From contig JBKBPM010000001.1 in NCBI GenBank assembly GCA_046293175.1, positions 102,891 to 166,890 of the forward strand: DNA of 64,000 nt. The letters run 5' to 3'. This DNA is from Minisyncoccia bacterium (GTDB taxonomy: Bacteria; Patescibacteriota; Minisyncoccia; Phycocordibacterales; UBA918). How positions within the stretch are numbered: the stretch's first letter is position 1; the number at the start of each line of letters is the position of its first letter. Below are positions 1,318 through 27,913 of this stretch, in pieces. Below the pieces are notes generated by a model. It searched no databases, was not told the origin of the DNA, and worked only from the letters and a program-made list of their open reading frames with translations. The translations under genes and the position numbers were made by a program.

Positions 1318-2367
1318 TTAGTCGACAATCGCTACAGCAGTCTCAAACGAGTTGTTGTTACGGTTACTATCTGGAGTAACAGATACTTCGACGTTATAGC
1401 GCTTGGCGCCCGTATCATCTCCCATTGTAAAGCCGAGAGTGATAGTTGCTCGTTCGTTTGGTTTGAGGGCCGCCTGACTTGGTGAAGTATAGGTCTCACC
1501 ATTTGGAAGTTTAGCGGTATAGGTCCAAGTGCTTGAGGTCTTGGTACCAATGTTCTTCACCTCAAACTTGATAGCGCCAGTTTCGTCGTTGTCGATGATT
1601 CCAGTAGCCTTAAAGGTCTCTTGAACGAGGATACCACTACCCACAAAGGCAACCGAGAGATCAGTAAAGCCATTTGGATTTGAGGCTGGGATACTGTAGA
1701 CCGGCTTTTGGGTATACACTGGCTTGGTTGGGATTGCTGGCTGAGTCGGCTTAGCCGGAGTGGCAGGTTTGGCCGGTTCAGCTGGCTTTTCCGTCAGGAC
1801 TGGTGGAGTAGTAGTGGCAGGGGATGAAGTAGCTACCGGTGTACCGGCCGTACCAATCGTAGCGTTAACAATCGTGATTGAGTTATCGTCGGTCATGAGT
1901 GGCGCCTCTTTACCTGAAGGGATAAAGTCGATGCGGTAGTTGAGGTCGGTAAAGCGATTCTTTTCAGAGGTAGCGACAATATCAATGGCACTCACACTTC
2001 CGATATTGTAGTTGGTGTCACAGGAGAGCGACTTGATAGCCCCGAGACTGTCTCGCATATCAACGGCTAGACCTTCACTACACGCGTATGAAAAGGCGAA
2101 GGTACCGGTACGCTTTGGTACATTCCAACTGATAGTGACCGATTCACCATCACTGACCGTTCCCTTGGTACTTGTGGTCTCAAGACCACGGGTATCGTAG
2201 CTATAGACACTGTCGGCGAGGGAAGCGAGCGACGTGAAGGCGCTTGGTAATACCTTCACGAGTTGGATACCTAACCACGCAATTACAATAATCAGGCCAA
2301 TAAAACCCACAATAGCAAGCGACTTAATGATTCCGTCTTTCTGCTGCTGTTCACGATTGTTTGTCAT
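1318..2367 (-). CDS. Hypothetical membrane-anchored (type II) surface protein with a Pro/Thr/Lys-rich linker
   Basis: 349 aa. N-terminal transmembrane helix (IIKSLAIVGFIGLIIVIAWLGIQLV). Central linker TPPVLTEKPAEPAKPATPAKPTQPAIPTKP. No recognisable catalytic motif. Confidence 0.55.
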   Translation of the reverse strand: MTNNREQQQKDGIIKSLAIVGFIGLIIVIAWLGIQLVKVLPSAFTSLASLADSVYSYDTRGLETTSTKGTVSDGESVTISWNVPKRTGTFAFSYACSEGLAVDMRDSLGAIKSLSCDTNYNIGSVSAIDIVATSEKNRFTDLNYRIDFIPSGKEAPLMTDDNSITIVNATIGTAGTPVATSSPATTTPPVLTEKPAEPAKPATPAKPTQPAIPTKPVYTQKPVYSIPASNPNGFTDLSVAFVGSGILVQETFKATGIIDNDETGAIKFEVKNIGTKTSSTWTYTAKLPNGETYTSPSQAALKPNERATITLGFTMGDDTGAKRYNVEVSVTPDSNRNNNSFETAVAIVD

Positions 2368-2594: not shown

Positions 2595-3248
2595 ATGCAC
2601 GACGAATCTTCATTTTTTGATGCCTTGTGGGTTAAAAAAGTACCATTTTTGGTAGTCTTTTTTGTGATTTTTACTCTCACGTACGGTGTCCTTTTTGCGG
2701 TTGATTTCTTGCCAGAACCAAAAACCAGTGCCCCAGTTAAAGCTGTGGCAACTTCTACTTTTGCCACCACAACCAAAGAAGTAGAGGAGGTGTCTCCGGC
2801 AGCTATGGCCGAAGAGCCGGTGCAGCTCTCGATTCCGTCACTTGATCGGGTAGTGTCTGTCCTTAATCCTGAAACCCGCGATATTGTTGAGCTTGACCGC
2901 GAACTCCTCAAGGGTGTGGTACGTCACCCTGACTCAGCCCTTCTTGGTGAAGAGGGGAATGTGGTTATTTTGGGTCATTCAAGCTACCTGCCAAACGTGA
3001 TGAACAAGAACTTCCAGGCCCTCAATGGTATCCAAAAGATGAAATGGGGCGATATTATCACGCTCCAAAGTGATGGTACCGAATATACCTATCGGGTAGA
3101 AAAGGTCTATCAGGCCAAGGCCTCGGGAGTCACTATCCCAACTGAGGTAACAGGGAAGCGTCTGACGCTCGTGACCTGTAACAGTTTTGGTGCCAAGGAA
3201 GACCGGTTTATCGTTGAAGCGAAGCTCCTCTCTGAAAAAGCCCTCTAA
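2595..3248 (+). CDS. Sortase (transpeptidase, class A/E-like)
   Basis: 217 aa. N-terminal TM anchor. Catalytic His in VVILGHSSY and the TLxTC catalytic Cys motif (RLTLVTCNS). Confidence 0.8.
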   Translation: MHDESSFFDALWVKKVPFLVVFFVIFTLTYGVLFAVDFLPEPKTSAPVKAVATSTFATTTKEVEEVSPAAMAEEPVQLSIPSLDRVVSVLNPETRDIVELDRELLKGVVRHPDSALLGEEGNVVILGHSSYLPNVMNKNFQALNGIQKMKWGDIITLQSDGTEYTYRVEKVYQAKASGVTIPTEVTGKRLTLVTCNSFGAKEDRFIVEAKLLSEKAL

Positions 3249-3606: not shown

Positions 3607-3797
3607 GGCCGCGCAAGGGGTGGGAAGGGGCAAATTTACATGCCCTGACCCACCTTTTTCTATATTTGACATTCTGCTGGTTATGTTGACAAATACCGGC
3701 GGATATGATAAGATACTTGAGTGAACAGAACCTTTGCTCTTTGACGAAATTACTGTCAGAGCGAACCCAACGCGGTGTTACCGCAAGGAGACTCCAA

Positions 3798-4289
3798 ATG
3801 GACCGTCGCAACTTTCTTCTTAGCATGGGTGCTGCCGGTCTGGTGAGCACATTGCCGGACATGGCTGCTGCATGCCCAGCGAAAAAGGCAACCAACTGCG
3901 TCCTCGTGCCGGCGCCGAATCATCGGACTCTCGGAACGCTTGAGCAGGAGCTTGAGCATTGGGCATGGCTCTGCCATCCCGATTATGCCAAACTCAAGCA
4001 ACCTCGCTGGTGGTCGTACGTGATGGTCACCGACAAGAGCTATCCGGCAGCAGTTCAGAGGGTTCTCAACAATCCGAAGGCTCCGCTCCCGGATGAAGTC
4101 GAGGTGCATGGGCAAGAGTGCCGTCAGCAGTGGTTCAAACCGGGCTGGCGCGCTCTCACGGTCACCAACTGTCGTCGTGAAGACCGGCGTTGGACCTTCT
4201 TGCTCTCTCGGCGGTTGACTGCAAAAGATCAAGGTCAGCCGCTCAAGAAAGCGGACTGGCAAGATCTTGAACCGGTCTTCGACATCTGA
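3798..4289 (+). CDS. Secreted cysteine-rich protein with a twin-arginine (Tat)-type signal, in a GC-rich island
   Basis: RBS aaggag at 3785-3790, then ATG at 3798. MDRRNFLLSMGAAGLVSTLPDMAAA is a Tat-like RRxFL signal. 163 aa with 6 Cys. GC about 58%. Confidence 0.5.
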   Translation: MDRRNFLLSMGAAGLVSTLPDMAAACPAKKATNCVLVPAPNHRTLGTLEQELEHWAWLCHPDYAKLKQPRWWSYVMVTDKSYPAAVQRVLNNPKAPLPDEVEVHGQECRQQWFKPGWRALTVTNCRREDRRWTFLLSRRLTAKDQGQPLKKADWQDLEPVFDI

Positions 4290-4393: not shown

Positions 4394-6484
4394 GTGTTGG
4401 TAAATAAATTTAAAATTATGTTTAGCATTATAAATATCAAAAATATTTTCATTGCAGGTCTCTTTTTGACCGTGATGTTTTTTGCTACCCTTGCAACTGC
4501 TCCACAAGCTTTCGCGCTCGGAACAAGTGGTTGTGATGGTTGTGGTGGCAGTGGTAGTACTGGTGGCAGTAACGATGGTGGTAATGATACTCCACAGACT
4601 CCTACCTGTTCGCTTGAGCTTAATAAGCTCGAAGTAACCGCTATTGGTGAGACCTACCGACTTACGTGGTCAGGCGGTCCGGCTTCAGCTCAGTTCTACA
4701 TCAATGGTGCTGCAGTAGCCGACTCAGGCGCTGCGAACTTCACCTTTACTGGTCCAAACTATGACCGTTTTAAGATGGTCGGTAACAATGGAGGTGTGAC
4801 CTGTGAAAAGGAAGTGCGTATTATTAAGAAAGTCCAGGAAGTGCCAAAGTGTGAATCGTTTACCGCTTCACCGGCGACTCTTCCAGCTGGCGGTGGCAAT
4901 GTGACCCTTACTTGGGATACCACGAATGCTACCAACGCTTCAATTGATAACGGTGTTGGCACAGTAGCTGGCGACGGTAGTACTGTCATCAACAATGTGA
5001 CCTCAAACCGTACCTTTACCCTCACGCTCTCAAACGCGGTAGGAAGTGCAAGTTGTCAGGCTTCGGTGACGGTTACCCCAGTGGTACACGCTCCAATCTG
5101 TGACTTCATTACCGCTAGTCCAGTAACCATCACTCGTGGCCAGTCAAGTACTCTCTCATGGGGAACTACGAATGCTACTAGTGCCTTCATCAACAATGGT
5201 ATTGGTACGGTTGCAGTTGATGGTTCAACTTCAGTGTCACCACTTGAAACTACTACCTACACCCTCACCGCTACTGGTGCTGAGAACAAGACAGTATCTT
5301 GTTCAAAGACTATCGTGGTTGATCAGCCAGAAGTGAAGACTCCACGTTGTGAATACTTCAACGCATCTGCTACTACCATTAAGCGTGGCGACAATGTAAC
5401 TCTTACATGGGATACAACAAACGCAAATAGTGCAGTCATCAACCCAGGTGTTGGCTCAGTCGCTGCTGATGGTTCAACCACCGTTTCTCCATCTGAAACG
5501 ACTACCTACACCCTCACCATCACTGGTGACAACAACCAGACTTCATCATGTACTCGTACCGTGAATGTCGAAAGTGGTAGTAACGGCGGAGGTGGCGGTG
5601 GATCATCTTCACCAAAGTGTACCCTCAAGATTTCAGACACTAAGATTACTCGTGGCGATCGTATCACCCTGAAGTGGGATACCTCACGCGCTACTGAAGT
5701 AACGCTTAAGGATAGTCACGGCAAGACCCTTGTTACCACTGATGGTAAGAAGTCATCTGATAAGAAGGATCTCTACGACGGTGAAATCACCCTTCGTCCA
5801 GAAAAGGATACTACCTACACCTTGATGGCTGAACGTGGTTCAAAGGATCGAACCTGTAAGGTGTCAGTAGATGTGAAGGATGGTGTAACGGTTATCACTG
5901 ACCGTGATCAGAAGCCGGTCGTAACTGGTATCTCTCTTACACAGGTTCCATACACTGGTTTTGAAGCTGGTCCATTCCTCACGATGCTTTTCTACGGACT
6001 CTTGCTCCTCTGGGCTCTCTACCTCGCGTATGTACTCGTGGTACGCAAGAACGGTGGCGCAGGTGCCCTTGCTATAGCGACACCTACTCCTACTCCGGTA
6101 GCTCCAGTTGCTCCGGTAGCAGTAAGTACTATGAGTACTCCACGATTCGTGGCTCCAGTTGCAGAAGCTGTAGCTGCACCAGTAGTTGGGTACGCAGCAG
6201 CGACCTCTACTACTGATGCCGCCTACGAAGCGATCGCTGAGAAGGTAGAAGATGCAGCACACGCGCAACACGTCCTTATCTCAAGTGAAGCCATGCGTCA
6301 CTTTATCGGTGCCACGAGTGAAGAAACTCGTACCGAGACATTGACCGCAGTCCTCGCTAAGGCTAAGGCATCATATCCGGCGGAAGATGGTTGGGTAGTT
6401 CTCAACATCGACCGTATGAAGAGTGTGATGGCAGCGATGGCACCAGCCGTCTCAGTCTTCACTCCTCGTTCTGTAGCTGCGTAA
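4394..6484 (+). CDS. Large surface protein with five tandem Ig-like repeats of about 90 aa, a sortase-like VPYTGF motif, a TM segment and a 170-aa C-terminal domain
   Basis: Signal peptide. Repeats follow the pattern C-x-F-ASP-TL-GG-VTLTWDTTNAT-I-NGVGTVA-DGST-TTTYTLT...C. VPYTGF (5945-5962) is followed by a hydrophobic stretch and RKNGG, then an Ala/Pro/Val-rich tail. Confidence 0.75.
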   Translation: MLVNKFKIMFSIINIKNIFIAGLFLTVMFFATLATAPQAFALGTSGCDGCGGSGSTGGSNDGGNDTPQTPTCSLELNKLEVTAIGETYRLTWSGGPASAQFYINGAAVADSGAANFTFTGPNYDRFKMVGNNGGVTCEKEVRIIKKVQEVPKCESFTASPATLPAGGGNVTLTWDTTNATNASIDNGVGTVAGDGSTVINNVTSNRTFTLTLSNAVGSASCQASVTVTPVVHAPICDFITASPVTITRGQSSTLSWGTTNATSAFINNGIGTVAVDGSTSVSPLETTTYTLTATGAENKTVSCSKTIVVDQPEVKTPRCEYFNASATTIKRGDNVTLTWDTTNANSAVINPGVGSVAADGSTTVSPSETTTYTLTITGDNNQTSSCTRTVNVESGSNGGGGGGSSSPKCTLKISDTKITRGDRITLKWDTSRATEVTLKDSHGKTLVTTDGKKSSDKKDLYDGEITLRPEKDTTYTLMAERGSKDRTCKVSVDVKDGVTVITDRDQKPVVTGISLTQVPYTGFEAGPFLTMLFYGLLLLWALYLAYVLVVRKNGGAGALAIATPTPTPVAPVAPVAVSTMSTPRFVAPVAEAVAAPVVGYAAATSTTDAAYEAIAEKVEDAAHAQHVLISSEAMRHFIGATSEETRTETLTAVLAKAKASYPAEDGWVVLNIDRMKSVMAAMAPAVSVFTPRSVAA

Positions 6485-6594: not shown

Positions 6595-7803
6595 GTGAAA
6601 ACTTGGCCGGCATTTTTCGTACTCATATTGGTGGGCATTGGCTTTTTGGCAGTGTCCGTACCGGTTTATGCAGCAGTGTCTTGTGACAGCTTTACAGTGA
6701 CTCCAACCAGTGCTTTGCCCGGTGACTTTGTCACCCTTGATTGGACGACTACCGGTGCCACAGATGTCACGATTGATGCCATTGGAGCAGTCGCTACAAC
6801 AGGAAGTACCATTTTTGAGGTACCAAATAGTCCAGGAACGTTTACTTTTTCTATGGAAGTTTCCGGTGGAAGTATCTTTGAGCCAGAAACTGCATTTTGT
6901 TCGACCGATCTCACTATCAACAGTCTACCAGTTTGTGATGTATTTACCGCTACCCCGGACACCCTCACTGAGCCGGGTGAGGTGACGCTGACCTGGGATA
7001 CTGCATCCGCGACTACTTCAGTGACCATTGATAATGGGATAGGTGTCGTAGCGGAAGATGATTCAGTAGTGGTTAGTGTGGCTGGTGACACCACGTATAC
7101 GCTCACTGCCGTTAATGCGTTTGGAAGCACGCAGTGTACCGCATCGGTGACCTTTGCCGCGACAGATGTAGGTAGTCTGAGTAGCGGCGGGGGAGGCAAG
7201 AGTATCAATCCTCGCTGTGACCTTACAATCGATACTGCGAGTGTGATGGCTGGAGACACGGCACTTATTTCGTACGAAGCGGTAAACGCTACCAACCTTA
7301 TGCTGATTGAATCAACCGCTGGTGGATCAAAAACATTATTTAGTACTACTACGTCCCTCGGTGAACAAACGGGAACTTGGCCAGTCACCGTTTTGGCGGA
7401 TACGACATATACGCTCAAAGTTACAAGACCTCATCGCTCAAGTGAATGTACTGCCGTTGTAGCACTGGCAGACCTCAGCGGCCTTGGTTTGGGCGAAATG
7501 CAAGGTGCGTCTTCACTTGCACTCCGGAATCTACCGGATACGGGATTTTATCCAACTACCGGCTTTATAGTGATTATGAATGTGGTTCTCGTAGCGGCAG
7601 CGGCTTTTGTGGCGTATGTGATCGTAGTATTTGGACAGTTGGCACGGCGGGCAAAGACGGTACCGATACGAGATCGTCTATTTACCCCACAGACAGTTCT
7701 GTACCTGACTGAACGCACCACCCTCCAAACCAAATTATTATTGTGGCGCATTATTGCAGTGACTATCATCTTACTTTTGATAATCTGGTACGCATTTCGA
7801 TAG
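6595..7803 (+). CDS. Surface protein with three Ig-like repeats and a C-terminal LPDTG sorting signal; a sortase substrate
   Basis: Likely GTG start at 6595 after aaagggg; an alternative ATG at 6520 lies inside the upstream terminator hairpin. Signal peptide. Repeats are paralogous to the 4394 gene. LPDTGF (7531-7548) is followed by a TM segment and RRAK, then a second hydrophobic segment. Confidence 0.7.
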   Translation: MKTWPAFFVLILVGIGFLAVSVPVYAAVSCDSFTVTPTSALPGDFVTLDWTTTGATDVTIDAIGAVATTGSTIFEVPNSPGTFTFSMEVSGGSIFEPETAFCSTDLTINSLPVCDVFTATPDTLTEPGEVTLTWDTASATTSVTIDNGIGVVAEDDSVVVSVAGDTTYTLTAVNAFGSTQCTASVTFAATDVGSLSSGGGGKSINPRCDLTIDTASVMAGDTALISYEAVNATNLMLIESTAGGSKTLFSTTTSLGEQTGTWPVTVLADTTYTLKVTRPHRSSECTAVVALADLSGLGLGEMQGASSLALRNLPDTGFYPTTGFIVIMNVVLVAAAAFVAYVIVVFGQLARRAKTVPIRDRLFTPQTVLYLTERTTLQTKLLLWRIIAVTIILLLIIWYAFR

Positions 7804-14963: not shown

Positions 14964-15561
14964 TCATCCCAAGAGCTCTGAGTTTGAAAACATGCACGCT
15001 GCTCCGGCTCAGAACGCGGTCAGTTCCTATCAAGTGCTACTTTCGCTCATGGTGACCGCCTTTGACCCGTTCGGGTTCTGGCGAGAGCATTTTATCGCCG
15101 GTAGGCACACCCGCATTTGCACTTGTGGTGAAAATGTCGTATAGTATAAAAGGTCTAATCAACCAAATTGTCCCGCTTCAATGTACTCAGAAAAGATGGA
15201 GAAAGAAGTTGAGGGACAACGAAGGTTTGAAAATGACCAAGCCGAGCGCGTGTGAAAAGTGTTTCGGCAATGAAAACGGCTGCAAGTTTGGTGGTGACAT
15301 CAAAAAGCCGCCACGGTCATGGAAGCAATGCGAGTATCGAGTCGCGCAAGCGAAAAAACTCATTCTCGAATCCAAGATTGCTCGTGGACAGGCATGTCCA
15401 TGGACGCCAACCTCTCTGGCAGTCTAAGTACAACGACAAGTGATGGTCTTCGAAGACATCTCTTGGCTGGATATTCCGGCAAACTGACCACCAGTCACGG
15501 TGGTCTTTCTTTTTGCTTTAGTATTGCATTTTTTTCTGTATCTGCTATAGTTTGCCCCATT

Positions 15562-15828
15562 ATGGTAGTACGAATGCGACATACGCGGTCCCACTCCGCC
15601 AATCGACGCTCTCACCACGCTCTTAAGAGCCCGGAGATGGCTGTCTGCAAAAACTGTGGTGCGATGCACCGTCCACATCACATGTGTTTGGCATGTGGCT
15701 TTTACAACGGTCGTATCGTGATTGATATGAAAGCTAAGGCAGAAGCCCGAGCAGCTCGCATGACCGCGAAGCGCGAAGCAATCCGCGCTGAGGCTGGTTT
15801 GCAAGCAGAAGCTCCGGCAACCAAGTAG
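15562..15828 (+). CDS. rpmF: 50S ribosomal protein L32 with a C-terminal Ala/Arg/Glu-rich extension
   Basis: MVVRMRHTRSHSANRRSHHALKSP...HRPHHMCLACGFYNGRIVI matches the L32 family (RRSHDAL, C-x2-C zinc ribbon). About 30 extra C-terminal residues. Confidence 0.75.
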   Translation: MVVRMRHTRSHSANRRSHHALKSPEMAVCKNCGAMHRPHHMCLACGFYNGRIVIDMKAKAEARAARMTAKREAIRAEAGLQAEAPATK

Positions 15829-15934
15829 TCACTCTCACACAAAGTCCCGCTTCGAAGCGGGACTTTGTGGATAATGCAGTAATGGTCTCTTTGGTGAGGC
15901 TATACTGATGGACAGTAGTAGTTAGTACATTTTT

Positions 15935-16837
15935 ATGGCAAATCGGCACCTTTCACGAAGTATCGTTCTTCAAACCATGTTTGAGTGGGATTTAAATGCA
16001 ATTGACCGCAAAGACGTCATCACTGTTTTAGATAGAAATATAGAAGAATTTGCGCCGAACAAAACTGATCGCCCATTCATGGAAAAGCTCCTTGATGGGG
16101 TTTTGAGTAAGCAACCGGAGCTTGACCTGGTCATAGAAAAAGCCGCTCCTGAGTGGCCAATTGATCGTATCTCTCCTGTCGATCGAAACATCCTTCGCCT
16201 TGGCCTCTTTGAGCTGTTGTTTGCTGATCGTAGTGAAGTACCGGCCAAAGTAGCAATTAATGAAGCGATTGAACTCGCGAAGCAATTTGGCGGAGAAAAC
16301 AGTAGTCGTTTTGTAAATGGTGTTCTCGGTGCGGTGTACAAAGAAATCGGTGAACCTGGCAAAGAAGAAATTGGTAAAAAGAAAAAGCGCGACATTCCAT
16401 TCCACGAAATGCCAGTGGAGCGCCTTGGTGGTGCGGTCGTGTATGCCGAAGACAATGGATCAATGTACCTCGCACTTGTGCATGACATTTTTGGTCACTG
16501 GACGCTCTCGAAGGGCAAAATAGAAGAAGGAGAAGAACTAGAAGCTGGGGCTGTGCGCGCCCTGAAGTCTGAGCTTGGACTTGATGTTACCATCGAAGCA
16601 CCACTGGGGATGAATGAATACGTAGCTAGTCACCCAGAAAAAGGTAAAGTTCGCAAGCAGGTCAACTATTTTCTGGCTTCTTCACCATATACTGAAATCA
16701 CTCTTGAACAAAAAGGTGGGCTTGATGATGGGCGCTGGTTTAAGGTGGCTGATATCCTCGACCTCAATTTTTATGAGGATATTCTGCCGATTGTGACTAA
16801 GGCTGTTACCATGCTTGTCGGTCGCCGAAGCAAATAG
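15935..16837 (+). CDS. nusB: Transcription antitermination factor NusB fused to a C-terminal Nudix-hydrolase-like domain
   Basis: The N-terminal 140 aa are NusB-like (LRLGLFELLF, VAINEAIELAKQFGGENSSRFVNGVLG). The C-terminal 150 aa carry a Nudix-box-like GKIEEGEELEAGAVRALKSELGL (G-x5-E-x7-R-A-L-x-S-E-L-G-L). Confidence 0.75.
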   Translation: MANRHLSRSIVLQTMFEWDLNAIDRKDVITVLDRNIEEFAPNKTDRPFMEKLLDGVLSKQPELDLVIEKAAPEWPIDRISPVDRNILRLGLFELLFADRSEVPAKVAINEAIELAKQFGGENSSRFVNGVLGAVYKEIGEPGKEEIGKKKKRDIPFHEMPVERLGGAVVYAEDNGSMYLALVHDIFGHWTLSKGKIEEGEELEAGAVRALKSELGLDVTIEAPLGMNEYVASHPEKGKVRKQVNYFLASSPYTEITLEQKGGLDDGRWFKVADILDLNFYEDILPIVTKAVTMLVGRRSK

Positions 16838-17030
16838 GACTTGATTTCTAGCCTCATATACTTTGTTGTCTTCGTCCTTCAAGCCTTCAATGTATACCAA
16901 CCATACACCTCAGGCTTTCAGTCCTCGACGCCGCGTCTCTGAGGCCATTAATCAAGCCCTTTGATTTCGAAGGAGAAGCGGCTGCGTTTTCAAATGCTTG
17001 TGAATACGCTATATTAGAAGATACTCATTT

Positions 17031-17747
17031 ATGGAAACACGAAACATAGCGGATGACTTACAGGCGCTGGAGAAAATTCTCGGTGTCACTTTTTCTGATT
17101 CGCTCCTTTTACTTACTGCTATAACTCACCGTTCATATCTCAACGAACACCGAGATGCACAACAGGATCACAACGAACGACTTGAGTTTCTTGGCGATGC
17201 TGTTCTTGAACTGATTGTGACTGATTATCTCTTTCGTACCTATAGCGACAAACCAGAAGGAGAACTCACAGCGATACGAGCAGCGTTGGTGAACACCGTC
17301 TCACTTTCAGCCGCTTCAGAGAAGCTTGGGGTTAATAAGTATCTCCTTATGTCTAAGGGTGAAGCCAAAGACGAAGGACGAGCTCGTCAGTACATCCTCG
17401 CTAATGTGTTTGAGGCATTTATTGGAGCGATATTTCTTGACCAAGGGTACGAGGCCGCGCGTGCTTTTGTTGCTCGTGAGCTTTTTCCAAAAACCGACGA
17501 AATTGTCCGCAAGCGCCTATGGCAGGACCCAAAAAGTCGTTTCCAAGAGCTCGCTCAAGATTACGCGTCAATCACTCCAACCTACAACTTGCTTGGACAA
17601 GAAGGTCCAGATCATGATCGGATGTTTACTATTGGTGTCTATCTTCGTCACGAATTAGTGGCTGAAGGGAAGGGACGTTCAAAACAGGAAGCTGAACAGC
17701 AAGCCGCCTTGCGTGCCATTGCAGTCAAGGGTTGGGATGCTGACTAA
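17031..17747 (+). CDS. rnc: Ribonuclease III
   Basis: ERLEFLGDAVLELIV signature plus a dsRBD at the C-terminus. Confidence 0.9.
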   Translation: METRNIADDLQALEKILGVTFSDSLLLLTAITHRSYLNEHRDAQQDHNERLEFLGDAVLELIVTDYLFRTYSDKPEGELTAIRAALVNTVSLSAASEKLGVNKYLLMSKGEAKDEGRARQYILANVFEAFIGAIFLDQGYEAARAFVARELFPKTDEIVRKRLWQDPKSRFQELAQDYASITPTYNLLGQEGPDHDRMFTIGVYLRHELVAEGKGRSKQEAEQQAALRAIAVKGWDAD

Positions 17748-17804: not shown

Positions 17805-18476
17805 ATGCAGCGCAAGTACTCTGCCGGTTTTTCACTCATCGAACTAATGGTTACCATTACCATTATTGGTATTTTGGCATCAATTATTTATGCCAATTTT
17901 GGTGGTGGCAATGCTAAAGCCCGTGATGCTAAGCGTCAGTCTGATTTGCGCATCATGCAAACGGCACTTGCTCAGTACAAACAACAGAATGGCCGATATC
18001 CGGCGATGGGGACTGATAGTAATGGTGATGGCTACGCTAGTGAAGGGGAGTCAGCTGCTTTTATTGTTGGGCTAACCCCAACCTACATAAATCGTTTACC
18101 AACCGATCCTCGTCGAGGCAGTAATCCTGGCTATTCATATGCAGTGGATAGTACCGGTAGCGTGTACAAGCTGGTTGCTCTTCGTACCGTTGAAACTGAA
18201 GTAGTGACCCATGAGCACCCATTTAAGAGTTGTGATATACGGGTAGGTAACAGTAGTGGATCTCTCGTCAGTGGTTCGACCGATCGTGAGGTGATTGGTT
18301 GGTGTGGACGTACAGCACAAGCGGGTAATGGTCTTCCAAGTTCATGTAATGCAGCTCAAGCGCCGTTTAATAATACCTACGGTGTTTGGGGAGGCTTTTT
18401 GCCAAAGACATCAGAAACCTGCGCTAACAATCTTACCAACTGTGTGCAAGATACAACTGCTATAATTTGTCTATGA
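17805..18476 (+). CDS. Type IV pilin / pseudopilin-like protein
   Basis: Prepilin N-terminal cleavage/methylation motif G-FSLIELMVTITIIGILASIIYA, followed by a Cys-containing globular domain. Confidence 0.75.
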   Translation: MQRKYSAGFSLIELMVTITIIGILASIIYANFGGGNAKARDAKRQSDLRIMQTALAQYKQQNGRYPAMGTDSNGDGYASEGESAAFIVGLTPTYINRLPTDPRRGSNPGYSYAVDSTGSVYKLVALRTVETEVVTHEHPFKSCDIRVGNSSGSLVSGSTDREVIGWCGRTAQAGNGLPSSCNAAQAPFNNTYGVWGGFLPKTSETCANNLTNCVQDTTAIICL

Positions 18477-18477
18477 T

Positions 18478-19020
18478 ATGAAAACACTTTCTTCACGCTT
18501 TGGCTTCACTTTAGTTGAACTGATGGTGGTCGTATCCGTGATTGGTATTCTTTCGAGTATTATTTATGCCAGTTTTGGTGGAGCAAGAGCAGCTGCTCGA
18601 GATGATGTACGCAAATCTGCTTTGAAGGAAGTACAGCTCGCACTCGAGCGCTATAAGGCTCAGTATGGCGTTTACCCTGCTCAGGGATGTGGCTCGTACC
18701 CAATCTATGCCGGAAGGGGTCCACATCCTGCTTGGGGTTGTTCTGCCGATCAGTACATTACTGGATTAGTACCGGACTTTATTTCCGAATTACCAAAAGA
18801 CCCAAATCAAGAAGATATTGATGGGTACGGCTATCTCTACCTCTCGACTGGAACCGATTATAAGTTAATTGCTCATCTCACTGTTGAGAAAAAACTCATT
18901 CAATCTTACAGGGATGAATTTGCGCGGTGCCCAGCTTCTATTGGTGCGGATCCGTGCGGGCCTGATCATCCTAACCCAAACACGTACGCCGTTTATTCAG
19001 CGGGTGCCGCAGGTTGGTAA
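18478..19020 (+). CDS. Type IV pilin-like protein (paralog A)
   Basis: GFTLVELMVVVSVIGILSSIIYA prepilin motif. About 60% identical to the next gene. Confidence 0.8.
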   Translation: MKTLSSRFGFTLVELMVVVSVIGILSSIIYASFGGARAAARDDVRKSALKEVQLALERYKAQYGVYPAQGCGSYPIYAGRGPHPAWGCSADQYITGLVPDFISELPKDPNQEDIDGYGYLYLSTGTDYKLIAHLTVEKKLIQSYRDEFARCPASIGADPCGPDHPNPNTYAVYSAGAAGW

Positions 19021-19028
19021 TTTAATTA

Positions 19029-19580
19029 ATGTCCCATCGTATGTATCGCTTTTTCAGAAAAACTGGCTTCACACTTGTCGAACTTATGGTAGTGATGTCG
19101 GTAATCGGTATTCTTTCGAGTATTGTCTATGCTAACTATAGCAGCTCTCGCGCCGTCTCGCGAGATGAGGTGCGTAAATCTGCACTCAAATCAATGCAGG
19201 TAGCGATTGAACTCTACAAATCTCAGTACGGCGTATATCCACCTCAAGGTTGTGGGACTTCACCAACTTGGGCTGGACCAGGACCACAACCGGCGTATGG
19301 TTGCACTGCTGACACGTACGTCACTGGTCTCGTACCAGATTTTATTGCTGCCTTGCCTACCGATCCGCTATCAGAAAATACCAACGGACTTGGCTTTTTA
19401 TATCGATCAACTGGTACTGATTACAAGCTTATGGTGCATAACTCAGTTGAAACTAAAACAGTCACTACCTATGAAGATGAGTTCGCCCGCTGTCCGCAGT
19501 CATATGGTACCGCTAATTGTCCCGCCGTACCGATGCCGCGTGTGTATGCTGTTTATTCGCCCGGTGCTGTTGGTTGGTAG
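19029..19580 (+). CDS. Type IV pilin-like protein (paralog B)
   Basis: GFTLVELMVVMSVIGILSSIVYA; a tandem duplicate of 18478-19020 (shared ...YGVYP.QGCG...GLVPDFI..LP.DP...YKL..H...E....Y.DEFARCP). Confidence 0.8.
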   Translation: MSHRMYRFFRKTGFTLVELMVVMSVIGILSSIVYANYSSSRAVSRDEVRKSALKSMQVAIELYKSQYGVYPPQGCGTSPTWAGPGPQPAYGCTADTYVTGLVPDFIAALPTDPLSENTNGLGFLYRSTGTDYKLMVHNSVETKTVTTYEDEFARCPQSYGTANCPAVPMPRVYAVYSPGAVGW

Positions 19581-27397: not shown

Positions 27398-27545
27398 ACC
27401 AAAACCAAGGACATCCGATGTCCTTGGTTTTGGTTTAGTATTCTCCCTAGGCAAGGCCTAGGGAGAATACTTCATTTAAATGAAGTATTCGATTTTATAA
27501 AAATGAAGAACCCCCGAATCGCTCCGGGGAGCCTTCGGGGGTTAT
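27397..27545. repeat. Cluster of four consecutive perfect hairpins/palindromes
   Basis: H1 27397-27436: aaaccaaaaccaaggacatc-cg-atgtccttggttttggttt. H2 27437-27467: REP-like ttctccctagg-caagg-cctagggagaa. H3 27463-27484: atacttcatttaaatgaagtat, the same family as the palindromes around 61500-62080. H4 27508-27540: acccccgaa-tcgctccggggagcc-ttcgggggt. Confidence 0.6.
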
Positions 27546-27913
27546 GCTGCGTCATGGAGGCGCCCGCTGTCATCGCAGGGCAGCCAGCCATTCGAAGAAA
27601 GGTATGCCGAGATTTGCTCAGCCAACACTTCGGGCTCGACAATCAGCTTGGTCGCCGCGAGGTCGATCTGCTTGAACCTGACGAAGGGGAACTTGTCGGA
27701 CAAGTCCTCCTCGACCATGTCCATTTCGAGAGCGAGACCGTGGCAGTCGACGTCGCAGGGCAGTCAACACAACGTAAGTATATGGCCCACCTTGGGCTCG
27801 CGAATGAAACTTCCGCGAGCGTTCACGGTGTACACCGTGTTGTCTTCGCTGGTGGGAATGGTGACGAAAAGCACGGATTCGTAGTTCATGTCATACTCCA
27901 TGCCTGGATTTAA
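27503..27913 (-). pseudogene. GC-rich segment carrying a disrupted minus-strand ORF; likely a degraded foreign gene
   Basis: Minus-strand pieces MEYDMNYESVLFVTIPTSEDNTVYTVNARGSFIREPKVGHI...stop (27901..27764) and MDMVEEDLSDKFPFVRF...SSNGWLPCDDSGRLHDAA (27724..27542) sit in different frames. Local GC about 57%. Confidence 0.3.

What the first reader, a model, noticed from the sequence alone, without database searches (positions are those of the whole stretch)
15935..16837. NusB fused to a Nudix-hydrolase-like domain
The N-terminal 140 aa are a normal NusB. The C-terminal 150 aa contain a Nudix-box-like G-x5-E-x7-R-A-L-x-S-E-L-G-L with a Glu-rich catalytic helix (EEGEELEAG). A transcription antitermination factor fused to a nucleotide-diphosphate hydrolase is not a standard architecture. 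It could couple rRNA antitermination to alarmone or cap-like nucleotide hydrolysis, or the Nudix domain could be a degenerate RNA-binding module (RE to RA).
Basis: partly seen in the sequence, partly recalled or inferred. Interest (0 to 1): 0.55.

Follow-up and report, generated by a model that had tools for sequence, protein, structure and literature searches.

The report
NusB fused to eroded Ap4A-hydrolase domain
This gene is a genuine fusion, conserved across a lineage of ultra-small (Paceibacteria/CPR) bacteria, of the rRNA antitermination factor NusB to an Ap4A-hydrolase-type Nudix domain that keeps its nucleotide-binding pocket but, in this genome, has lost two of its catalytic glutamates, so it probably binds rather than cleaves a nucleotide.

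Summary
Window 15935-16837 (+) is one uninterrupted 300-aa ORF. It has a full-length NusB domain (Pfam 2.7e-36; above the cut-off of NCBI's nusB model TIGR01951), a disordered Lys/Glu linker and a true Nudix fold (Pfam 1.6e-12).

It is not an artefact. The best 80 species-level matches, all Paceibacteria/Parcubacteria, encode the same fusion, as do about 55 clusters at 50% identity, almost always in the order rpmF, nusB::nudix, rnc.

By sequence and fold the Nudix domain belongs with the asymmetrical Ap4A/ApnA hydrolases (Aquifex aq_158, Ndx1, human NUDT2).

The new point is how it evolves. The adenine-stacking and P1-phosphate residues (W189, K193, Y229, K241, Y280) are 84-96% conserved. The catalytic box is complete in only 43 of 132 fusions and changes state at least 26 times on the tree. 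Once the Glu of 'RE' is lost, the rest of the box decays but the pocket does not. This window's protein reads RALKSE and belongs to the decayed class.

Best reading: NusB carrying a tethered nucleotide-binding or 5'-end-binding pseudo-hydrolase, working alongside RNase III. The ligand and its effect are inferred, not shown. I found no paper describing the fusion. It is a new variant of known kinds, of moderate interest.

The parts
15935..16837 (+). nusB::nudix fusion gene (300 aa plus stop)
   Evidence: Single ORF. Both Pfam domains present. An identical protein is in NCBI. The best 80 species-level loci encode the same full-length fusion.
15935..16348 (+). NusB domain (residues 1-138)
   Evidence: PF01029 E=2.7e-36. 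TIGR01951 scores 128.9 bits against a cut-off of 88.35. Full-length matches to all solved NusB structures: 1tzt 1.4e-19, Aquifex 3r2c, E. coli 3d3b/3imq. Foldseek 3imq TM 0.85, rmsd 1.6. E93, F126 and G129 are invariant in the family.
16349..16414 (+). Flexible Lys/Glu-rich linker (residues 139-160, GEPGKEEIGKKKKRDIPFHEMP)
   Evidence: pLDDT about 41 for residues 141-151 and pTM 0.56. This is the least conserved segment, 7-41 aa long in the family.
16415..16825 (+). Nudix-fold domain of the asymmetrical Ap4A/ApnA-hydrolase type (residues 161-297)
   Evidence: PF00293 E=1.6e-12. Foldseek: Aquifex Ap4A hydrolase 3i7u TM 0.88, then Ndx1, CT771, MutT1/Rv2985 and NUDT2. Family profile against PDB: 3i7u 8e-20, CT771 3e-15, Ndx1 8e-13, NUDT2 6e-12, Dcp2 1e-9. 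Pocket residues W189, K193, Y229, K241, Y245, W268 and Y280 are 84-96% conserved.
16514..16582 (+). Degenerate Nudix box G194..L216 (GKIEEGEELEAGAVRALKSELGL); A209 and S212 replace catalytic/metal-binding Glu
   Evidence: Read directly. In the family E209 is at 31%, E212 at 60% and E200 at 67%. The full box is present in 43 of 132 fusions, with at least 26 state changes on the tree.
17031..17747 (+). rnc (RNase III), conserved downstream partner
   Evidence: Pfam Ribonucleas_3_3, Ribonuclease_3 and dsrm. It lies directly downstream in 77 of 80 related loci, with a median gap of 11 nt, and also in fusions only 32-42% identical, with gaps of 4 nt, 9 nt or an 11-nt overlap.
15562..15828 (+). rpmF (ribosomal protein L32), conserved upstream neighbour; the exact start is uncertain (15562 or 15574)
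   Evidence: PF01783 at residues 87-136 of the 169-aa maximal ORF. It lies upstream in 79 of 80 loci.
15838..15869 (+). Hairpin after rpmF (perfect 15-nt complementary arms around a 2-nt centre; the fold gives a 14-bp stem with a 4-nt loop), terminator-like. It separates rpmF from a TATACT -10-like box at 15901-15906 ahead of nusB::nudix.
   Evidence: The intergenic RNA folds at -41.4 kcal/mol, z=-5.1. Close relatives have equivalent GC hairpins followed by a T-run and a TA(T/C)ACT box.

Best explanation
The gene encodes this organism's NusB. NusB is the factor that, with S10/NusE, binds boxA RNA and nucleates the rRNA antitermination complex. Here it carries, on a flexible linker of about 20 residues, a Nudix domain descended from the asymmetrical Ap4A/ApnA hydrolases.

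Shown:
1. The N-domain meets NCBI's NusB equivalog model and the NusB fold.
2. The two domains are joined by a disordered linker with no fixed orientation.
3. The C-domain is a Nudix fold closest to Ap4A hydrolases.
4. The residues that in Ap4A hydrolases stack the adenine (human Tyr82 and Phe128 = Y229 and Y280) and hold the P1 phosphate (Lys42, Tyr82 and Lys89 = K193, Y229 and K241) are under strong constraint across the whole fusion family.
5. The metal-binding/catalytic Glu residues of the Nudix box have been lost repeatedly. Once the 'RE' Glu is gone, the rest of the box decays.
6. This window's protein (R-A-L-K-S-E) is in the decayed class.
7. The gene sits immediately upstream of rnc throughout the lineage.

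Inferred: in this genome the domain is a pseudo-hydrolase. It still binds an adenine nucleoside 5'-polyphosphate but hydrolyses it poorly or not at all. The ligand could be free Ap4A/ApnA/ATP, or the 5'-ppp/Np4-capped end of the boxA-bearing nascent pre-rRNA to which NusB is bound. It therefore acts as a tethered ligand sensor or 5'-end holder within the antitermination/RNase III processing pathway. In the roughly one third of orthologues with an intact box, the same domain probably still hydrolyses that ligand.
For: - One ORF with both domains.
- Structure and fold.
- Ap4A-hydrolase affinity by profile: 3i7u 8e-20, NUDT2 6e-12.
- Residue mapping: the alignment gives K193=Lys42, Y229=Tyr82, K241=Lys89 and Y280=Phe128. 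PMC4734340 describes Lys42 and Tyr82 (with a His) as coordinating the P1-site sulphate in the human enzyme; the Plasmodium residue equivalent to human Lys89 also contacts it, though human Lys89 itself does not. The same paper describes the adenine ring as stacked by a conserved Tyr and a second Tyr/Phe. PMC5389931 and PMC2425470 describe the conserved ApnA-hydrolase tyrosine.
- Conservation in 132 fusions: K193 96%, W189 95%, W268 95%, Y280 92%, Y229 84% and K241 85%, against E209 31%, E212 60%, E200 67% and R208 67%.
- Full box in 43 of 132 with at least 26 changes on an NJ tree, against 4 changes each for K193, Y229 and Y280.
- Two classes. With E209 (n=49) the box is 92-100% conserved. Without E209 (n=83) E200, R208 and E212 fall to 54-59% (E213 to 84%) while the pocket stays at 86-96%.
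- Among relatives at least 83% identical, REUxEE reads RELKEE, RSLKDE, RALKSE, RALKAE and others, while the pocket is 119-120 of 120. E212 is lost only where E209 is already lost.
- Purifying selection persists in a clade without the canonical box: omega 0.13-0.16.
- Synteny with rnc.
- Precedents: CFIm25 lacks 2 of the 4 box Glu, binds but does not hydrolyse Ap4A/ATP, and works in RNA processing (PMC2425470). [quoted passage not shown]
- Some relatives add a C-terminal Rho_N/HeH nucleic-acid-binding motif.
Against: - No biochemistry exists for any member. Loss of two box glutamates predicts low activity but does not prove it. E200, R208 and E213 remain, and some Nudix enzymes use a catalytic base outside the box.
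- The pocket residues could be conserved partly for fold stability.
- The ligand is unknown.
- The domain is acidic (net charge about -6, pI about 5.1), which does not favour binding an RNA body.
- The class statistics are not phylogenetically corrected, and the tree is a simple NJ tree.
- dS is near saturation, so the dN/dS values are rough.
- I could not check whether the genome has a second NusB or other Nudix genes. There are none in the 64-kb window.
- In this window the nusB-rnc gap is 193 nt with a promoter-like site, so co-transcription with rnc is less certain here than in relatives.
Confidence: 0.6

Rival explanations
1. Active tethered hydrolase. Despite A209 and S212, the domain in this genome still works as an RppH-, Dcp2- or ApaH-like enzyme. 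It would remove pyrophosphate or an Np4 cap from the 5' end of boxA-containing nascent rRNA, or clear Ap4A locally, and so prime leader removal together with RNase III.
For: - The family descends from Ap4A hydrolases, and the next-closest sequence family is the Dcp2 decapping enzymes.
- 43 of 132 orthologues keep a perfect box, including relatives 84% identical to the query.
- E200, R208 and E213 are retained here.
- Np4 and NpnN caps exist in bacteria and are removed by RppH, which is a Nudix enzyme, and by ApaH (PMC7044304, PMC8833179).
- Adjacency to rnc is conserved.
Against: - The 'RE' Glu and the first 'EE' Glu are replaced.
- Family-wide, loss of E209 is followed by decay of the other box residues, the signature of lost catalytic constraint.
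- CFIm25, which also lacks two box Glu, shows no hydrolysis (PMC2425470).
- The domain is acidic.
Confidence: 0.22
2. Pure protein scaffold. The Nudix fold has been co-opted as a structural subunit of the antitermination complex, like the enzyme-fold protein SuhB, the hub of the E. coli rrnTAC, or as a docking site for RNase III. It would have no nucleotide ligand, and the conserved aromatic residues would be an interface or the fold core.
For: - SuhB is an enzyme-fold protein that acts as the structural hub of the rrnTAC (PMC10250234).
- Catalytic residues are dispensable in most of the family.
- Pairing with rnc is conserved, often with gaps of 4-11 nt or an overlap.
- Non-catalytic Nudix domains can mediate protein interactions (PMC5389931).
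Against: - The best-conserved residues coincide one-for-one with the adenine-stacking and P1-phosphate residues of Ap4A hydrolases rather than with a new surface (PMC4734340).
- A third of the family keeps a complete catalytic box.
- No inter-domain or partner interface could be tested with these tools.
Confidence: 0.12
3. Unrelated functions fused by accident of gene order. A housekeeping Ap4A hydrolase gene became fused to nusB with no functional coupling, and the Nudix part is decaying towards loss.
For: - The box decays repeatedly.
- The Nudix domain is somewhat less conserved than the NusB domain: 63% against 71% identity to the query.
Against: - The domain has been kept at full length in every one of the 132 fusions compared, down to about 30% identity, with no real split or truncated forms. 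The one apparent split, L082, is a single in-frame TAA at a conserved Tyr codon.
- Omega is well below 1, even in clades without the canonical box.
- Pocket residues are 86-96% conserved in the decayed class.
Confidence: 0.05
4. Annotation or assembly artefact: two separate genes joined by a missed stop or frameshift.
For: None found.
Against: - The frame is continuous.
- An identical protein is in NCBI, and there are hundreds of 298-300-aa homologues.
- The best 80 loci, each from a different species-level genome, all have the same architecture.
Confidence: 0.01

Closest known systems
NusB (transcription antitermination factor; E. coli NusB in the NusB-S10-boxA complex and the rrnTAC)
   Same: The N-terminal 138 residues are a complete NusB by the curated equivalog model, by full-length sequence matches to all solved NusB structures, and by fold.
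   Different: Canonical NusB is a single-domain protein of about 140 aa. This one has a linker and a 140-aa Nudix domain. Its gene context is rpmF-nusB-rnc.
Asymmetrical Ap4A/ApnA Nudix hydrolases (Aquifex aq_158 3i7u, T. thermophilus Ndx1, Chlamydia CT771, human NUDT2, the N-domain of mycobacterial MutT1/Rv2985)
   Same: Same fold (TM 0.84-0.88). Best profile hits (8e-20 to 6e-12). The WT-x-x-KG motif, the adenine-stacking aromatic pair and the P1-phosphate Lys/Tyr are shared (PMC4734340).
   Different: Those are free-standing active enzymes, or fused to a histidine-phosphatase domain in MutT1, with an intact REUxEE. Here the domain is fused to NusB and the box is RALKSE. In the family as a whole the box is intact in only about one third of members.
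CFIm25 / NUDT21 (eukaryotic pre-mRNA 3'-processing factor)
   Same: [quoted passage not shown] It binds Ap4A and ATP without hydrolysing them and works inside an RNA-processing machine (PMC2425470). This is the closest functional analogy.
   Different: It is a eukaryotic protein. It is not among the listed sequence or fold matches of this domain. It binds Ap4A at a different site and recognises UGUA RNA.
NrtR / AraR (Nudix-related transcriptional regulators)
   Same: A Nudix domain fused to a nucleic-acid-binding domain. [quoted passage not shown] NrtR and AraR appear among the weaker fold and profile hits.
   Different: The partner there is a winged-helix DNA-binding domain and the ligand is ADP-ribose or arabinose. 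They are repressors of initiation, not elongation/antitermination factors.
RsmB/Sun 16S rRNA m5C967 methyltransferase
   Same: It is the established case of a NusB-like N-terminal domain fused to a catalytic domain that acts on rRNA. The query's N-domain also hits the RsmB models weakly.
   Different: Its partner domain is a SAM methyltransferase. The RsmB N-domain is a paralogue, not the organism's NusB.
SuhB in the E. coli rrnTAC
   Same: An enzyme-fold protein that serves as a structural hub in the rRNA antitermination complex (PMC10250234).
   Different: It has an inositol-monophosphatase fold, is a separate polypeptide and shows no homology to this protein.

Membership tests
NusB (TIGR01951 / PF01029) | Score above the curated equivalog cut-off over the full model length | tested here: met
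   TIGR01951 scores 128.9 bits against a cut-off of 88.35, model positions 2-130 of 131. PF01029 scores 125 bits, positions 3-133 of 133.
NusB (TIGR01951 / PF01029) | All-helical NusB fold | tested here: met
   AF2 predicts seven helices with pLDDT mostly above 85. Foldseek: 3imq TM 0.85 with rmsd 1.6; 1eyv TM 0.85.
NusB (TIGR01951 / PF01029) | Binds S10/NusE and boxA RNA and supports rRNA antitermination | not testable with these tools
   There is no rRNA operon or boxA in the window and no complex prediction is available. This is inferred from orthology only.
NusB (TIGR01951 / PF01029) | Is the genome's only NusB | tested here: inconclusive
   There is no second NusB in the 64-kb window.
Nudix superfamily (PF00293) | [quoted passage not shown] | tested here: met
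   48 bits against 21.1. Foldseek TM 0.88 to 3i7u.
Nudix pyrophosphohydrolases (active enzymes) | Complete Nudix box GX5EX7REUXEEXGU with the metal-binding/catalytic glutamates | tested here: not met
   The box is G-x5-E-x7-R-A-L-K-S-E-L-G-L: the 'RE' Glu is Ala209 and the first 'EE' Glu is Ser212. In the family the box is intact in 43 of 132.
Nudix pyrophosphohydrolases (active enzymes) | Mg2+/Mn2+-dependent hydrolysis of a nucleoside diphosphate-X substrate | not testable with these tools
   This requires an enzyme assay.
Asymmetrical Ap4A/ApnA hydrolase subfamily (NUDT2-like) | Closest sequence and fold relatives are ApnA hydrolases | tested here: met
   Profile hits: 3i7u 8e-20, CT771, Ndx1, NUDT2, C. 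elegans Ap4A hydrolase. Foldseek gives the same ranking.
Asymmetrical Ap4A/ApnA hydrolase subfamily (NUDT2-like) | Conserved Tyr downstream of the box that stacks on adenine, a second aromatic residue, and the P1-phosphate Lys | tested here: met
   Y229=Tyr82, Y280=Phe128, K193=Lys42 and K241=Lys89 by the alignment. Their roles are taken from PMC4734340, PMC5389931 and PMC2425470. They are 84-96% conserved.
Asymmetrical Ap4A/ApnA hydrolase subfamily (NUDT2-like) | Ap4A hydrolysis to ATP + AMP | not testable with these tools
   No assay was possible. Low or no activity is predicted for this protein because of the box defects.
RppH (RNA pyrophosphohydrolase, NF001936) | Score above the curated cut-off | tested here: not met
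   19.1 bits against a cut-off of 118.
MutT / 8-oxo-dGTPase (NF008044; MutT1 NF052459) | Score above the curated cut-off | tested here: not met
   18.4 bits against 148, and 27.4 bits against 475.

The most novel reading that the evidence does not exclude
In Paceibacteria the rRNA antitermination factor itself carries a receptor for dinucleoside polyphosphates or 5'-polyphosphate/Np4-capped RNA ends. rRNA transcription and RNase III processing would then be coupled directly to Ap4A-type alarmone levels, or to the chemical state of the 5' end of the pre-rRNA. The family would toggle repeatedly in evolution between a 'hydrolyse' form (intact box) and a 'bind only' form (eroded box, as here). This would be a natural series of enzyme-to-pseudoenzyme switches inside a core transcription factor.
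Probability: 0.25. Interest if true: 0.75.

Novelty: new variant of a known kind. Interest (0 to 1): 0.55.

Why it matters
NusB is a core, normally single-domain transcription factor. A version carrying a nucleotide-binding Nudix module throughout a major CPR lineage suggests these minimal-genome bacteria wire rRNA synthesis and processing to nucleotide signalling, or to 5'-end chemistry, in a way model organisms do not.

The family also offers dozens of independent, recent transitions from an intact to an eroded catalytic box with the ligand pocket preserved. That makes it a ready-made natural experiment on how enzymes become pseudo-enzymes, testable with a handful of recombinant proteins.

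In practical terms, these proteins are annotated only as 'NusB' and the second domain goes unmentioned.

Tried and rejected
1. Missed stop or frameshift: rejected.
2. Naturally split versions: the apparent stand-alone Nudix P0240 next to a 133-aa NusB (L082) is the same gene with a single in-frame TAA at the conserved Tyr135 codon. P0221 is cut by a contig end. P0249 sits on a 695-bp contig that gives no context.
3. A NusB-Nudix-RNase III triple fusion in L073 was an error in my ORF extension. A stop is present.
4. A boxA-like autoregulatory element ahead of nusB: CTCTTT occurs in only 13 of 80 rpmF-nusB intergenic regions, which shows no sign of conservation.
5. A stand-alone-NusB CPR relative (P0190) has no Nudix neighbour and no rpmF/rnc context, so no intermediate with adjacent separate genes was found.
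6. dN/dS for the query's own clade: dS is saturated for almost all species pairs. Only 9 pairs were usable, and none includes the query.
7. Taxon names for the most divergent fusions: the clusters carry no names.
8. Foldseek against AFDB50: the library was not available.
9. Literature: four searches for NusB with Nudix, CPR, Parcubacteria or Patescibacteria found no description of this fusion.
10. Rfam and tRNA scans of the window: no hits, so no rRNA leader or boxA is available here.
Full report
**1. The observation**

Window 15935-16837 (+) is a single ATG-to-TAG ORF of 300 codons with no interruption.
- Pfam finds NusB (PF01029, residues 7-136, E=2.7e-36) and NUDIX (PF00293, residues 167-281, E=1.6e-12, 48 bits against a gathering score of 21.1).
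- NCBIfam's nusB equivalog TIGR01951 scores 128.9 bits against a cut-off of 88.35. The specific Nudix equivalogs (RppH, MutT, MutT1, NudI and others) all fall far below their cut-offs.
The 'RE' Glu is Ala209 and the first Glu of 'EE' is Ser212.
- The only slip is that 'EEGEELEAG' is mostly the loop before the Nudix helix. The predicted helix is 202-214.

**2. It is a real, conserved gene**

- An identical protein is deposited from a Candidatus Paceibacteria MAG on a 676-kb contig, named only 'transcription antitermination factor NusB'. The 120 best database hits are 286-324-aa proteins (mostly 298-300 aa) carrying both Pfam domains.
- A search without a word index against 1.84 billion 50%-identity representatives found about 55 full-length fusion clusters, down to about 30% identity.
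- A scan of one genome per GTDB species kept the best 80 loci. All encode the full fusion at 59-87% identity. All come from Paceibacteria/Parcubacteria lineages: Kaiser-, Adler-, Nomura-, Yonath-, Lloyd- and Taylorbacteria.
- The one apparent 'split' (L082) is a single in-frame TAA at the conserved Tyr135 codon.

**3. Anatomy**

- AlphaFold2 on a 66-sequence alignment gives mean pLDDT 88.7. There are two confident domains and a disordered Lys/Glu-rich linker (141-151, pLDDT about 41). pTM is 0.56, so the domains are beads on a string.
- Foldseek against the PDB matches the N-domain to NusB (M. tuberculosis 1eyv; E. coli NusB-S10 3imq, TM 0.85, rmsd 1.6).
- It matches the C-domain best to Aquifex Ap4A hydrolase 3i7u (TM 0.88). 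Next come M. tuberculosis Rv2985 and M. smegmatis MutT1, Chlamydia CT771, T. thermophilus Ap6A hydrolase Ndx1, and the C. elegans and human Ap4A hydrolases.
- A profile of the C-domain alone ranks the same proteins: 3i7u 8e-20, CT771 3e-15, Ndx1 8e-13, NUDT2 6e-12. Dcp2 decapping enzymes follow at 1e-9.
- The N-domain matches every solved NusB over its full length.

**4. Context**

- The window is a housekeeping region. In order it holds gyrB, a sortase, thrS, dnaE, rnhB, rpmF, nusB::nudix, rnc, three pilin-like genes, smc, an SLT-domain gene, RNase R, rpsP, khpA, trmD, rpoB, rpoC, dnaG and rpoD.
- In the 80 related loci rpmF is upstream in 79 and rnc directly downstream in 77. The median nusB-rnc gap is 11 nt.
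- Fusions only 32-42% identical keep (yceD-)rpmF-nusB::nudix-rnc, with gaps of 4 nt and 9 nt and an 11-nt overlap.
- In the window the gap is 193 nt and contains a promoter-like site.
- rpmF is followed by a strong hairpin (15838-15869; z=-5.1) and a TATACT box (15901-15906). Close relatives have the same layout. In this clade nusB::nudix therefore probably starts its own transcript.

**5. How the Nudix domain evolves**

I aligned 132 fusions and weighted the sequences.
- The best-conserved C-domain positions are K193 (96%), W189 (95%), W268 (95%), Y280 (92%), T190 (90%), G166 (88%), Y245 (88%), D184 (87%), K241 (85%) and Y229 (84%).
- The catalytic box is much less conserved: E209 31% (rank 78 of 143 positions), E212 60%, E200 67%, R208 67% and E213 82%.
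- The HMMER alignment to human NUDT2 gives W189-T190 = Trp38-Thr39, K193 = Lys42, Y229 = Tyr82, K241 = Lys89 and Y280 = Phe128.
- In Ap4A hydrolases the P1-site sulphate is held by Lys42 and Tyr82 (with a His) in the human enzyme. The Plasmodium equivalent of Lys89 also contacts it, although human Lys89 does not. The adenine ring is stacked by the conserved Tyr and a second Tyr/Phe (PMC4734340; also PMC5389931 and PMC2425470).
- So the nucleotide pocket is under strong constraint and the hydrolytic machinery is not.
- A complete box occurs in 43 of 132 sequences and needs at least 26 state changes on an NJ tree. K193, Y229 and Y280 need 4 each.
- The decay is nested. With E209 present (n=49), E200, R208, E212 and E213 are 92-98% conserved. 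With E209 absent (n=83), E200, R208 and E212 drop to 54-59% and E213 to 84%. The pocket stays at 86-96%.
- The variation reaches very close relatives. Among the 120 proteins at least 83% identical to the query, REUxEE reads RELKEE (58), RSLKDE, RALKSE (13, including the query), RALKAE, RSLQEE, RGIKEE and others. E212 is lost only where E209 is already lost. Pocket residues are 119-120 of 120.
- In the few species pairs where dS is not saturated, the Nudix domain has omega 0.09-0.32, against 0.07-0.20 for NusB. This includes 0.13-0.16 within a clade that lacks E200 and E209.
- Caveats: the counts are not phylogenetically independent, the tree is crude, and dS is high.

**6. Interpretation**

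- The pattern fits a family that began as NusB plus an active ApnA-type hydrolase and has lost catalysis repeatedly while keeping ligand binding. This window's protein is in the catalytically eroded class.
- The closest working analogy is CFIm25/NUDT21. It is a Nudix protein lacking two of the four box glutamates. It binds Ap4A (Kd about 2.4 uM) and ATP without hydrolysing them, and it acts in RNA processing (PMC2425470).
- In the E. coli rrnTAC, NusB anchors boxA next to the RNA exit channel, so that the leader can later pair with the trailer to form the RNase III substrate. An enzyme-fold protein, SuhB, is the structural hub of that complex (PMC10250234).
- A nucleotide-pocket domain tethered to NusB, encoded next to rnc, is therefore well placed for one of two roles. 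It could sense a free adenine nucleoside polyphosphate. Ap4A-type alarmones are also precursors of Np4 RNA caps (PMC7044304, PMC8833179). Or it could hold, and in members with an intact box process, the 5'-polyphosphate or capped end of the same nascent pre-rRNA.
- I cannot discriminate between these two roles. The domain's acidity (net about -6) argues mildly against extensive RNA contacts. An extra C-terminal Rho_N/HeH motif in some relatives (P0150, 28.8 bits against a gathering score of 24.9) argues for proximity to nucleic acid.

**7. Membership**

- It is a NusB by every sequence and fold criterion I could test. S10/boxA binding and uniqueness in the genome could not be tested.
- It is a Nudix-fold protein of the ApnA-hydrolase branch.
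- It fails the defining box of active Nudix hydrolases, so it should not be filed as a hydrolase.

**8. Novelty and verdict**

- Both domains are known, and the fused sequences are already in public databases, named only NusB.
- Four full-text searches found no description of the architecture.
- The fusion and the evolutionary behaviour of its box make it a new variant of known kinds.
- Interest is moderate (0.55). It would be a real surprise for people who work on antitermination and on CPR biology, and it is directly testable. But the mechanism is inferred, and both domains are ordinary families.

Noticed in passing
window 15829-15934: A strong hairpin lies 10 nt after the rpmF stop (15838-15869; perfect 15-nt complementary arms; the intergenic RNA folds with z=-5.1). 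A TATACT -10-like box follows at 15901-15906, about 29 nt before the nusB ATG. Close relatives have equivalent GC hairpins with a T-run and a TA(T/C)ACT box, so rpmF and nusB::nudix look like separate transcription units in this clade.
   Followed up: partly
window 16838-17030: The nusB::nudix-rnc spacer is 193 nt here and contains a promoter-like site (16987-17015). The median in 77 related genomes is 11 nt, and the two genes overlap in some. Coupling to rnc may be looser in this genome.
   Followed up: partly
window 17805-19580: Three tandem genes for pilin-like proteins with an N-terminal methylation motif (type IV pilin/pseudopilin) sit between rnc and smc. Matches to them lie between rnc and smc in only about 8 of the 80 related loci (L001-L004, L006-L009) and elsewhere or nowhere in the rest; most loci show rnc followed by smc with no pilin match. 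The block looks like a variable insertion into a conserved junction.
   Followed up: partly
window 1-64000: There are no tRNA genes (ARAGORN) and no Rfam hit at gathering threshold in the whole 64 kb, although the region is dense in housekeeping genes (rpoB/C, rpoD, dnaE, dnaG, thrS, hisS, rpsP, rpmF).
   Followed up: no
window 1318-2367 (-), 3705-4289 (+), 4394-6484 (+), 6666-7418 (-), 27503-27913 (+): Five sizeable ORFs (136-696 aa) have no Pfam match at E<=1e-5. Four of them cluster near a sortase gene (2595-3248), so they may be lineage-specific surface proteins.
   Followed up: no
window 15319-15828: The longest rpmF ORF is 169 aa, but the L32 domain covers only residues 87-136. The true start is probably the ATG at 15562 or 15574. 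The 5' part of the ORF overlaps other spurious ORFs.
   Followed up: no
P0150, P0124 (relatives, not in the window): Some NusB::Nudix proteins carry a third, C-terminal Rho_N/HeH-type motif after a low-complexity spacer (P0150 28.8 bits against a gathering score of 24.9; P0124 18.8 bits, below threshold). This gives a NusB-Nudix-HeH architecture.
   Followed up: partly
L083 (protein P0176): In the most eroded members (box positions read G-L-A-I-D-K-N) the precomputed Pfam annotation no longer lists NUDIX, although the domain is kept at full length and the gene still sits between rpmF and rnc. Surveys based on domain annotation will undercount this fusion.
   Followed up: partly
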